DNA of 63,042 nt, filler included, from Kipferlia bialata (taxonomy: Eukaryota): NCBI GenBank assembly GCA_003568945.1. It is 6 parts of 6 records of this genome, joined end to end, with 100 filler letters (N's around TTAATTAATTAA, not from the genome) between each part and the next. Parts side by side here need not be neighbours in the genome. Positions count along the whole stretch, not along the records: positions 42,127 to 52,538 come from BDIP01001433.1; 5 more parts are not named here. One strand, 5' to 3'. The position numbers and the translations under genes are program-made. Under the pieces are notes generated by a model. That model ran no database searches. It was not told where the DNA came from and worked only from the letters and a program-made list of their open reading frames with translations. This document shows positions 45,020-47,894 of this stretch, in pieces. How positions within the stretch are numbered: the first letter of the stretch is position 1; the number at the start of each line of letters is the position of its first letter.

Positions 45020-47894
45020 GTACGAGTTAAGAGACAGAGAGGAGTTATAGCCACCACATACTGCAGCCAGGGTCCACAGTTTCCACAAGTACGTTGCATT
45101 GTACATCTATAACATATGATATGTAGTGATACACTGTGCCGCGTTTTTATACATATTTGATGTAAATGTATGTCTGACTCTAGGCAACAGCCCTGGCGAG
45201 ACCTCCCAGCGATACTGCGTGGTGTTTGAGGCCAAGTTCAGTGCCAAGAAGGAGGTGCACTATAGGTATGGAAATATATATATATATACATATATATATT
45301 TATATTTATATTTATACTTATATACCATATTTATGTGTGTTTATTATACTGTATATGTGTAGATGGTATATACATATGTGTGGTGGTTGAGGCCAAGTTC
45401 AGTGCCAAGAAGGAGGTCCATTACAGGTATGTGTCTATATATAGTGGGTATGGATGAGTTTGTCGCTTGATGAACCTAACTATAAGAGTGTACCAAGGCC
45501 CTAAGGCCAACATACCCTTTGTATACATAAGAGCGCTATGCTGCATACTTCTGGTGTCATTGTATAATTTGCCTGTGTATATTGTATGGATCTAATATCA
45601 AGGGTATACCCCAAGGCCCTTCTGGCCAACAGACCCTTTGTGTCCAAGACACTATCCCTGCCAGACACACTCCTCCAGCCAAAGAAGGCACTGGCTCTGC
45701 TGAGGTACATATATATAGTATATATATATATACTATATTATTATTGGTGTATGTATTTAGTATATATGTAATTATATAATGTCCCTGCCAGACACACTCC
45801 TGCAGCCAAAGAAGGCACTGGCTCTGTTAAGGTATATATATATATATACTTATACATTTATGTATATAGATATTAGTGTATATATACATATATATATAGT
45901 ATATATATGTATTAGTATATAGTGCATGTATGTACTGTCTCTGCCAGACACACTCCTCCAGCCCAAGAACGCACTGGCGTTATTGAGGTATCTCTATACT
46001 ATACTACTAGGATATAGTAGAATATAGTGGTGTATATGTACATATACACTGTCCCTGCCAGACACACTCCTCCAGCCCAAGAAGGCACTGGCTCTACTGA
46101 GGTACTGTATATGTATTATTAGTATTGAAAGGCACTGGTACTTATGTTAGTGTATATATACATATACATACATATACATATACATACATATAATGCATAT
46201 CTATTAGTGTATATATAGTGTATAATGTATAGTGTATAGTGTATAGTGTATGCATATGTTGTCCCTGCCAGACACACCACTGCAGCCAGAGATGGCATTA
46301 GCACTACTGAGGTATTCTCATAGCACTACTGCTTCTCTACCCTAATGTGTTGCAAATGCACTATTGCATCACCGTTATTATATATGTATAAACCCCATAC
46401 TACTAATCCATAGGGACATGATGCGCACATGCATATATATATATCTCTGTATACCTCTTACTCTCAGAGATATGATGCGCACATGCATCGAGGAGGGGGA
46501 GGCAGAGGTCAAGAGACTGACAGACCAGATGCCCAGGGACTACCCAGGTATATAGTGTATTGAGTCGTATATACATAATTGTATATACTTGTATGGATTC
46601 TGTATAACCATATGTATCTCCATATAACTATGTACGCATACACATTGTATAGGGATTGTACTCACGGGGCAGATGCCCAGGGACTACCCAGGTATATACC
46701 CCCTCCTTGAACCCACTGTGCATATTGTATATCTCTTCTCTTCGTATAGTATCAAGTGTATCTATTAGCCTTATCCCCAGACTCCCTCCTTGAGCCCACT
46801 GTGCCGGGTATGCCCTCTCTCTCTCTCTCTCTCTCTCTCCCTCTCCTGTCTCCATTGATATTTATAATAGCCTTCTCACCCCCAGACTCCCTCCTTGTGC
46901 CCACTGTGCCTGGCATGTTGCTGACAGTCATTGGGTCAATGTCAAGGGTGGACGCTCTAGGTATTATATATACTAATAATACATATATAGAGTATATATA
47001 TGGATATAGTGTATATATTGATTAGTGCCTGGCATGCTGCTGACAGTCATCGGGTCAATGTCCAGAGTAGATGCACTAGGTATCATTGTGTGTATTCTAA
47101 GTGTATCTAGTGATGGTAATCTATATGAATATGTATACTTAGTATATTCAGTGTATCTATAATATATATAGTCTGGCATGCTGCTGACTGTGATTGGATC
47201 AATGTCCAGAGTGGACGCATTAGGTACTATTGCATTCCTATATATGTATTTTCAGTCTACTGTATTGAGTGCTCTTCTGTCATTGATCTACTGTCGCTGG
47301 TATTCTGTAATTCCCTCCATATTTGTCTGGTCCGGTACACGTACGGAACTGTATACTAATTATCTTAATTATTTCTGGTTCTTCTCCATATACTGTCTTG
47401 ACTCTCCATTGACCATCCCTGACCCCTAGGCGTGGCCGAGGAGTTTGCTGCCCGCATAGCCAACCCCAGGACATGCATCAAGATCAGGTACTGTTTATAT
47501 GCGCTATGCTATTCTTTGTATTATCACTCTCACTCCCAGGAAGCCTGTCCACCGTGCACAGAGGGGAGGGGAGGGGTCAGGTATATCCAGTCACATCATA
47601 TATACTTATATAGGTATGTAATGGTATATAACATACTTATATATATATGATTGTATATGTCCACTGTGCACAGAGGGGAACCGAGGGATCAGGTATGGTG
47701 ATATATAGTGTAGCATCTGAGTATTACTAGATATATATGTGTATATTGTATTTAGGTGTGCCCGGAGAGGAAGGGAGCAATCAGATATGTGAACAGACCC
47801 TACTCACTGTATATGTTACTACCATCATCTGTCGAACTCTGTGTGTCAATCTCTCATTACAGGTACCTATGAAAGAGACTGCCGACTCAGACAC

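What the first reader, a model, noticed from the sequence alone, without database searches (positions are those of the whole stretch)
46886..47223. Intronic 'exon echoes' differ from the real exon almost only at synonymous sites
Seen: the Mre11 exon 46886-46960 ends GGC ATG TTG CTG ACA GTC ATT GGG TCA ATG TCA AGG GTG GAC GCT CTA G|GT. Two truncated copies in the next intron (~47025-47079, ~47172-47223) encode the same GMLLTVIGSMSRVDAL. They have 7 and 8 codon differences from the exon, all synonymous, and each keeps its GT donor. Neutral intronic duplicates should not show this bias. Inference: each echo was once the functional exon end or was copied from a divergent allele, or the echoes are spliced in. 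The pattern recurs in four independent genes here, so it looks like a genome-wide process, and I know of no description of it.
Basis: partly seen in the sequence, partly recalled or inferred. Interest (0 to 1): 0.92.

Follow-up and report, generated by a model that had tools for sequence, protein, structure and literature searches.

The report
Introns built from captured exon ends
In the free-living protist Kipferlia bialata, 72 of 109 introns in four genes hold truncated copies of the neighbouring exon end that differ from the working exon mostly at silent codon positions, and these copies are likely scars of DNA repair that swapped in exon ends from other, strongly diverged versions of the same gene, which would make such introns an archive of past alleles.

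Summary
Confirmed and wider than reported. The organism is Kipferlia bialata and the gene is Mre11. Exon 46886-46960 has two donor-bearing copies (47025-47079, 47173-47223) with 7 and 8 synonymous and no replacement differences. Across four genes, 72 of 109 introns hold 135 such echoes: 295 synonymous against 96 replacement differences (pN/pS 0.10-0.14). New here: the differences are polar. Synonymous differences reach 36% in the splice-site half of an echo and 14% in its free-end half, while replacement differences stay flat near 3.5%. The intron flank behind a 3' echo is unrelated to the exon's own flank, and arrays hold up to five distinct versions. Echoes lack a second splice site and lose the one they have at about the replacement rate, so they look silent now. 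In toy simulations, same-chromosome duplication gave ratios of 0.36-0.69; only capture from diverged functional alleles gave 0.11-0.18. Best reading: one-sided homologous repair copies another allele's exon end plus intron start and rejoins with a short overlap. Against it: no diverged second haplotype is visible in the public proteins. No read-level or RNA evidence was obtained.

The parts
46886..46960 (+). Mre11 coding exon (DSLLVPTVPGMLLTVIGSMSRVDAL), donor GT at 46961-46962
   Evidence: spliced alignment of annotated protein P0005
46961..47024 (+). spacer 1: working donor plus 64 nt of AT-rich intron; in-frame stop if retained
47025..47079 (+). 3' echo 1: last 55 nt of the exon, 7 synonymous and 0 replacement differences, own GT at 47080-47081
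47080..47172 (+). spacer 2: echo donor plus AT-rich intron; in-frame stop if retained
47173..47223 (+). 3' echo 2: last 51 nt of the exon, 8 synonymous and 0 replacement differences, own GT at 47224-47225
47224..47429 (+). rest of the intron up to the acceptor of the next exon (47430-47487)
46781..46807 (+). upstream copy of the exon start with its acceptor and a GT; the public gene model treats it as a 27-nt exon (DSLLEPTVP), so it may be an exonised echo; not counted among the 135
45782..46311 (+). array of four 3' echoes of exon 45603-45704; five mutually distinct versions counting the exon
42407..52289 (+). Mre11 gene, 31 exons, 39 anchored echoes
1047..9789 (-). gene g1 (model identical to P0006, 1142 aa, no Pfam family), 31 exons, 27 echoes
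21076..31502 (-). gene g2 (own model, unnamed, partial), 22 exons, 48 echoes, including eight 5' echoes at 21728-22418
32530..41490 (-). Tfb2/p52-like gene (own model; two exons hit Pfam Tfb2 weakly, E 0.003-0.004, below the curated cut-off), 29 exons, 21 echoes

Best explanation
The echoes are truncated, splice-site-anchored copies of exon ends that are likely silent today and are likely scars of one-sided homologous repair from a diverged, working allele of the same gene. Inferred steps: (1) a broken end or stalled fork inside an exon invades the homologous exon of another lineage's chromosome; (2) synthesis runs through that allele's exon end, splice site and about 70 nt of its intron; (3) the intron is too different to re-anneal, so the new end is joined back to the resident chromosome inside the exon, often with a 10-35 nt overlap; (4) the product is viable because the outer copy is a complete exon and the leftover has only one splice site; (5) the leftover then decays neutrally and is lost after about 3% change, long before it can erase the 35-45% synonymous distance between the two alleles. 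The mirror event makes 5' echoes. Shown: geometry, coding-type divergence, polarity, unrelated 3' flanks, single splice site. Inferred: the donor alleles, the repair route, silence at RNA level, and which copy is the newcomer.
For: Geometry: 74 donor echoes all downstream, 61 acceptor echoes all upstream, 0 on the wrong side in 109 introns, 0 hits in 545 foreign-exon trials. Coding-type divergence: 195 of 779 fourfold sites differ vs 87 of 3,016 non-degenerate sites; first-position Leu/Arg sites 16 synonymous, 0 replacement. Polarity: 146/407 vs 57/404 synonymous, 27/726 vs 25/754 replacement; 37 vs 12 of 58 arrays; 0 of 2,000 within-echo permutations with re-trimming reach it; it follows distance from the free end (p 1e-19), not from the splice site (p 0.41). 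Foreign flanks: 3 of 74 3' echo flanks resemble the exon's own flank above the 95th percentile of unrelated introns. Several donors: 12 of 25 arrays hold 3-5 distinct versions; 10 of 25 informative site pairs fail the four-gamete test. Decay: splice dinucleotide lost in 9 of 135, 2 stops (3.8 expected if neutral), 2 of 2 gapped echoes frameshifted. Toy simulation of homolog insertion with donors 0.38 apart gave ratio 0.17, splice half 0.32/0.047, free half 0.13/0.030. K. bialata is listed with four Dmc1 entries, Spo11, Hop2 and Pol theta and without Rad51A, Ku70 and Rad54 (PMC8516963 Supplementary Data 2); Dmc1 stabilises mismatched joints (PMC6719624 abstract); incomplete synthesis followed by end joining is a known repair outcome (PMC2895639 passages).
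Against: No diverged second allele is visible: P0006 is alone in its 90% cluster, a second record of the Mre11 C-terminal half is identical at 349 of 349 residues, and the published draft has 69 single and 6 duplicated complete BUSCOs. The donors must therefore be other strains or past hybrid partners, which is untested. The required synonymous distance (0.35-0.45) is above the within-species values I recall. Synonymous differences lean to GC in the exon and AT in the echo (113 vs 71 unique variants), which a symmetric allele swap does not predict. Replacement differences are more conservative than neutral (mean BLOSUM 0.14 vs -0.42), so part of them is filtered, and divergence does not rise with rank in an array (rho 0.06). 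21 of 61 5' flanks do resemble the exon's own flank. The simulations are toys with hand-set rates and still gave more alike flanks (14-19%) than seen. K. bialata is listed with Msh2 and Msh3, which should oppose recombination between diverged DNA (recalled).
Confidence: 0.5

Rival explanations
1. Echoes are born as ordinary same-chromosome tandem duplications across an exon-intron boundary and are then refreshed by frequent unequal crossing-over with working exons of diverged homologous chromosomes. The donors are the same as in the best explanation; birth and capture are separate events.
For: One simulation setting (theta 0.8, frequent ectopic exchange) gave ratio 0.12 with a gradient of 0.25 vs 0.16. 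28 of 135 echoes are identical to the exon; 21 of 61 5' flanks are alike; units within an array often share their free-end position.
Against: The same setting left 37% of flanks alike against 3 of 74 seen for 3' echoes, and adding ordinary allelic crossover almost removed the gradient (0.22 vs 0.20). It needs the same unseen diversity.
Confidence: 0.2
2. Assembly or culture artefact: exon ends from several haplotypes or strains were strung together in tandem.
For: Short-read draft quality (six contigs of about 10.4 kb); identity at the free end is where a graph could switch haplotype; 19 of 91 arrays hold an exact repeat of 33 nt or more; no read-level check was obtained.
Against: No 55-mer occurs twice anywhere in the window and the longest exact repeat in the target array is 16 nt. 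A junction from intron-like DNA into mid-exon exists in no ordinary allele, so it must be in the DNA if contig k-mers come from reads (inference). Without the 19 arrays the result stands: 229 vs 62, gradient 99/254 vs 49/247. Up to five versions per array exceed a diploid, and some echoes carry stops, frameshifts or dead splice sites.
Confidence: 0.1
3. Echoes are used now: spliced in as alternative exons, or joined to the exon by a non-canonical jump inside the identical free-end stretch, so selection keeps their protein sequence.
For: pN/pS near 0.1 is typical of working paralogues; 73 of 74 donors keep GT and echo splice scores match real ones; the public model includes one such copy (46781-46807) as an exon; echo 1 has an AG that would give an in-frame 54-nt insertion (sequence).
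Against: Strong second splice sites are rarer than background (3/74, 0/61 vs 12%); unit length has no preference for multiples of three (51/45/39); 8 of 61 acceptors lost AG; both gapped echoes are frameshifted; the public g1 protein equals my model without any echo.
Confidence: 0.08
4. Relics of whole-exon tandem duplicates that once served as mutually exclusive exons and were recently truncated.
For: Would give synonymous divergence without allelic diversity; tandem exon duplication is a known source of such exons (search listing only: PMC9013439, PMC3228551).
Against: Random truncation would leave wrong-side fragments; 0 were found against 135 right-side. It does not explain identity at the free end or presence in two thirds of introns.
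Confidence: 0.05
5. Neutral same-chromosome duplicates or a treadmill of displaced exon ends within one clonal lineage.
For: Explains the geometry; at more than 30 nt from the splice site pN/pS is 0.16-0.58, near the neutral 0.5 in the 31-40 nt bin.
Against: All clonal simulation settings gave 0.36-0.69, no gradient in the seen direction and 50-92% alike flanks; echo-private changes are 2:1 synonymous.
Confidence: 0.03

Closest known systems
Tandem duplication across an exon-intron boundary (potato RdRp case, PMC4974935, abstract read; proto-splice-site model in Drosophila, PMC2891723, passages read)
   Same: A short duplication carries one splice site and part of an exon; the 46781-46807 copy looks like the potato outcome, a new mini-exon and intron.
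   Different: Those are rare single events from the same chromosome and create new introns. Here two thirds of introns in four genes carry such copies, they mostly stay inside the old intron, and they differ from the exon like diverged working alleles, with polarity and unrelated flanks.
Incomplete synthesis-dependent strand annealing followed by end joining (SDSA+EJ, Pol theta; Drosophila, PMC2895639, passages read)
   Same: One homologous junction and one non-homologous junction around a copied tract; K. bialata is listed with Pol theta and without Ku70.
   Different: Described for induced breaks with a sister template; not as a natural, repeated source of intron DNA from diverged alleles. 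The 10-35 nt overlap has no explanation from it.
Mutually exclusive exons from tandem exon duplication (search listing only)
   Same: Tandem exon-like copies with synonymous divergence.
   Different: Those copies are complete, have both splice sites and keep frame; echoes are truncated and have one site.
Silent donor cassettes for gene conversion (trypanosome VSG, Borrelia vls, chicken immunoglobulin pseudogenes; recalled, no call)
   Same: Silent partial gene copies that look protein-constrained.
   Different: Those serve one variable locus and diversify the protein; echoes sit in housekeeping genes such as Mre11 and keep the protein the same.

Membership tests
Mutually exclusive / cassette exons | own acceptor and own donor | tested here: not met
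   strong second site at 3 of 74 and 0 of 61 free ends, background about 12%
Mutually exclusive / cassette exons | full-length, frame-preserving copy of the exon | tested here: not met
   median echo 32 nt, truncated; unit length mod 3 = 51/45/39
Mutually exclusive / cassette exons | present in spliced mRNA | not tested
   no reads could be laid on the locus
Neutral partial tandem duplicate (same chromosome) | copy lies on the intron side of its splice site | tested here: met
   135 right-side, 0 wrong-side
Neutral partial tandem duplicate (same chromosome) | pN/pS about 0.5 against the exon | tested here: not met
   0.10-0.14 seen; 0.36-0.69 simulated
Neutral partial tandem duplicate (same chromosome) | intron flank duplicated with the exon end | tested here: not met
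   3 of 74 3' flanks alike; 21 of 61 5' flanks alike
Intron gain by tandem duplication | duplication creates a new spliced intron | tested here: inconclusive
   possible for 46781-46807, which the public model splices; not for the 135 counted echoes
SDSA+EJ / one-sided capture scar | switch from resident to donor sequence inside homology | tested here: met
   divergence rises with distance from the free end
SDSA+EJ / one-sided capture scar | donor allele exists and matches the captured tract | not testable with these tools
   no genome or other strain held; public proteins show no diverged allele
SDSA+EJ / one-sided capture scar | microhomology or templated insert at the non-homologous junction | not testable with these tools
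   needs the donor intron; 39 of 135 free ends abut a dinucleotide run of 6 nt or more, no background computed
SDSA+EJ / one-sided capture scar | organism has the repair genes | tested here: met
   from a published table only: Dmc1, Pol theta, Spo11, Hop2 listed; Rad51A, Ku70, Rad54 blank

The most novel reading that the evidence does not exclude
K. bialata turns over its exon ends continuously: a Dmc1-only, Ku-less repair system captures exon ends from diverged lineages and leaves the displaced version in the intron. About half of the intron DNA in affected genes would consist of such scars, each array would record three to five past alleles, and the single genome would hold direct evidence of repeated outcrossing between strongly diverged lineages in a fornicate, with occasional exonisation of a scar as a route to new introns.
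Probability: 0.35. Interest if true: 0.92.

Novelty: new variant of a known kind. Interest (0 to 1): 0.82.

Why it matters
Intron DNA that carries the imprint of protein-level selection, in most introns of ordinary genes, is surprising whatever the cause. If capture from other alleles is right, one genome gives tens of thousands of small, datable repair events and a measure of allele diversity and sex in a lineage related to Giardia. It would tie the loss of Rad51 and Ku in fornicates to a visible genome trait, and bear on whether Kipferlia's 124,912 introns (PMC5874029) are all ancestral or partly grown in place. It also poses a splicing question: the cell must use the first donor and the last acceptor among up to nine near-equal sites with a reduced spliceosome (87 of 174 proteins found, PMC6679479 passages). 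In practice, echoes can mislead gene prediction: my own predictor took several for exons.

Tried and rejected
No whole genome was held. Sequencing runs: X1 (DNA by guess) holds 0.91 of the sampled words of 42600-52500 and may be the source sample, so it is not independent; no RNA holder was listed; X2 (RNA by guess) holds 0.12. No reads were laid on the locus, so contiguity and splicing are unchecked. A metagenome scan with Mre11 found 55 pattern matches and no relative. The first protein search was empty. Pfam named 3 of 9 long ORFs and neither g1 nor g2. A first, unanchored echo search over-extended into introns (99 vs 49) and was replaced by the anchored one. Rejected: transition bias (ratio 0.14 even at weight 6; 110 of 195 fourfold differences are transversions); weaker codon constraint near splice sites (GC at fourfold sites 0.57-0.64, flat; distance from the splice site adds nothing); edge trimming as cause of the gradient; age order along arrays (rho 0.06 and 0.10); read-through into echoes (stops); a jump to the homolog without overlap (no gradient). 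Literature: ten searches showed no description of the pattern in their listings; the genome paper has no match for 'duplicat' and none of the shown 'repeat' passages concerns it. The library lacks most subscription journals.

Full report
Organism and gene. The window is six unrelated contigs of about 10.4 kb joined by N linkers. A 41-codon exon at 50080-50202 is 100% identical to a Kipferlia bialata protein, whose cluster holds a 709-aa protein named DNA repair protein Mre11 (P0005; Pfam Metallophos). An exact spliced alignment of P0005 gives 31 exons between 42407 and 52289 with GT-AG introns; where it offered two placements I took the longer exon, and the model matches the first 708 of 709 residues.

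The observation. Echoes at 47025-47079 and 47173-47223 copy the last 55 and 51 nt of the exon, each followed by GT. They show 7 and 8 synonymous and no replacement differences. They differ from each other at 7 sites and encode the same peptide. Exon and both echoes each have private synonymous changes, so all three lineages were constrained as protein.

Census. I modelled three more genes with a small predictor and hand curation, dropping predicted exons that were echoes. The g1 model equals the public protein P0006 at 1142 of 1142 residues. The g2 and Tfb2-like models are mine; they are open and have canonical sites except one mis-set last acceptor in g2. A codon-blind, ungapped search anchored at exon ends found 135 echoes in 72 of 109 introns: 74 of exon 3' ends, all downstream, and 61 of exon 5' starts, all upstream. 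Wrong-side hits were 0, and 545 trials with exons of other genes gave 0. The unit period is 103 nt (92-117); median intron length is 113, 215, 356 and 459 nt with 0, 1, 2 and 3 echoes. By arithmetic, 135 units of about 103 nt are about 14 kb of some 29 kb of intron. Two contigs are nearly free: 0 of 32 and 2 of 24 strong acceptor-like sites have a nearby copy, against 16-23 of 34-52 in the other four.

The bias. Of 391 differences in 4,679 sites, 295 are synonymous and 96 replacements; by codon position 69, 32, 290. pN is 0.027-0.029, pS 0.21-0.27, ratio 0.10-0.14, alike in all four genes. Fourfold sites differ at 25.0%, non-degenerate sites at 2.9%. Echo against echo gives pS 0.26 and pN 0.039. 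Echo-private changes are 50 synonymous and 25 replacement; exon-private 15 and 4. 28 of 135 echoes are identical to the exon (all).

Silent or used? Echo splice sites score like real ones, but a strong second site at the free end occurs in 3 of 74 and 0 of 61, below the 12% background. GT or AG is lost in 9 of 135 (1 donor, 8 acceptors; 9 echoes over 270 positions is 3.3%, close to pN). There are 2 stops (3.8 expected if neutral), and both gapped echoes found are frameshifted. Against a purely neutral reading, replacements are more conservative than random and donors are lost less often than acceptors. RNA could not be examined, so silence is inferred.

Polarity, new here. In echoes of 36 nt or more, leaving out the last 6 nt, synonymous differences are 146/407 in the splice-site half and 57/404 in the free-end half; replacements are 27/726 and 25/754. 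Per array the split is 37 to 12 of 58, 9 tied. None of 2,000 within-echo permutations with re-trimming reached the seen value (0.218; null mean 0.037, maximum 0.140). The effect follows distance from the free end (p 1e-19) and not distance from the splice site (p 0.41). The 30 nt of intron behind a 3' echo resemble the exon's own flank in only 3 of 74 cases; 5' flanks do so in 21 of 61. Twelve of 25 multi-echo arrays hold three to five distinct versions, and 10 of 25 informative site pairs are four-gamete incompatible, which recombination or repeated mutation can cause. So an echo reads as resident sequence at its free end and as a different working allele, with a different intron, at its splice end.

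Simulations. I ran 21 toy forward simulations with hand-set rates. The six clonal sister-duplication runs and the self-donor run gave ratios of 0.36-0.69. Low-diversity sexual settings gave 0.17-0.47. With donors 0.25-0.38 apart, a jump to the homolog gave 0.11-0.17 without gradient; sister duplication with allelic crossover alone gave 0.32 and the reverse gradient; sister duplication with frequent ectopic exchange gave 0.12-0.14 with a weaker gradient and 37-42% alike flanks; insertion of the homolog's exon end with overlap gave 0.11-0.18, the seen gradient (0.32 vs 0.13 at best), roughly flat pN and 14-30% alike flanks. These runs exclude the clonal models as coded and rank the others only loosely.

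Mechanism. I commit to one-sided homologous repair from a diverged allele, closed by end joining. It is self-selecting: alike homologs repair cleanly, whereas unalignable introns leave a scar (inference). A published table lists K. bialata with Dmc1 (four entries), Spo11, Hop2, Pol theta, Msh2 and Msh3 and without Rad51A, Rad54 and Ku70 (PMC8516963: passages, section 8 and supplement rows seen; one supplementary PDF had no text). Dmc1 stabilises mismatched joints (PMC6719624, abstract only). Incomplete synthesis followed by end joining is common at Drosophila P-element breaks (PMC2895639, passages).

What speaks against it. The donors are not seen. P0006 has no second cluster member; a second record of the Mre11 C-terminal half is identical over 349 residues; the published draft has 69 single and 6 duplicated BUSCOs and is called diploid from k-mers (PMC5874029: parts 1-3 of 6, passages and supplement 1 seen). 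The strain would have to be largely homozygous and the donors other lineages. The GC lean towards the exon (113 vs 71), the 10-35 nt overlap, the 100-nt period and the echo-free contigs are unexplained.

Artefact? No 55-mer repeats anywhere in the window, and the target array's longest exact repeat is 16 nt. Dropping the 19 of 91 arrays with exact repeats of 33 nt or more leaves 229 vs 62 and the gradient. If the window comes from a short-read graph assembly, its intron-to-mid-exon junctions must be in the reads (inference; a final k of 55 is recalled as a common default). I leave 10% for an artefact because no reads were laid.

Prior description. Ten literature searches showed none in their listings. 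The nearest cases are single boundary-crossing duplications that make new introns (PMC4974935, abstract; PMC2891723, passages). I also saw passages of PMC6679479, PMC11787283 and the preprint 10.1101/2021.03.14.435266 (its supplements are closed). Earlier AI notes of this scan list isolated look-alikes in two sea-urchin genes and a fungal gene; these are unchecked leads.

Noticed in passing
window 46781-46807 (+): A copy of the exon start with acceptor and a GT donor is treated as a 27-nt exon in the public Mre11 model, giving DSLLEPTVP-DSLLVPTVP; a candidate exonised echo or an annotation error. It has its own decayed upstream copy at 46698-46721.
   Followed up: partly
P0004: A second public K. 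bialata record repeats the C-terminal 349 aa of Mre11 without a difference and starts at MSRVDAL, inside the peptide shared by the exon and its echoes; a second haplotype or a redundant contig.
   Followed up: partly
window 10540-20974 and 52639-63042: Two contigs with intron-bearing genes (among them a large receptor-like kinase at about 53560-60780, minus strand) are almost echo-free and have longer exons.
   Followed up: partly
window 59260-59363 (-): An 18-nt tandem repeat, about 5 copies, made of branch point, AG and the first bases of the next exon: a miniature stack of acceptor sites in an otherwise echo-free gene.
   Followed up: no
window 21728-22418 (-): Eight 5' echoes in one intron, each with branch point and AG-type site, separated by CT or TA runs; longest exact repeat 49 nt, the array most open to assembly error.
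   Followed up: partly
acceptors throughout, e.g. 46868-46885: Branch point and acceptor are fused at a nearly fixed distance (CTnAC/T, 4-5 nt, then AG), often after a CT run; resembles what I recall for Giardia and Trichomonas introns.
   Followed up: no
window 32530-41490 (-): Likely TFIIH p52/Tfb2 gene split by a scaffold gap at 35051-35112; two exons hit Pfam Tfb2 weakly.
   Followed up: partly
window 23373-23682 (-): Two of three echoes share the same three replacement changes (M>L, D>S, N>D) against the exon, which looks like a protein-level allele and not decay.
   Followed up: no
window 19204-20421 (+): Long single ORF with Kelch-like beta-propeller similarity; only two K. bialata relatives at 33-34% identity were found.
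   Followed up: partly
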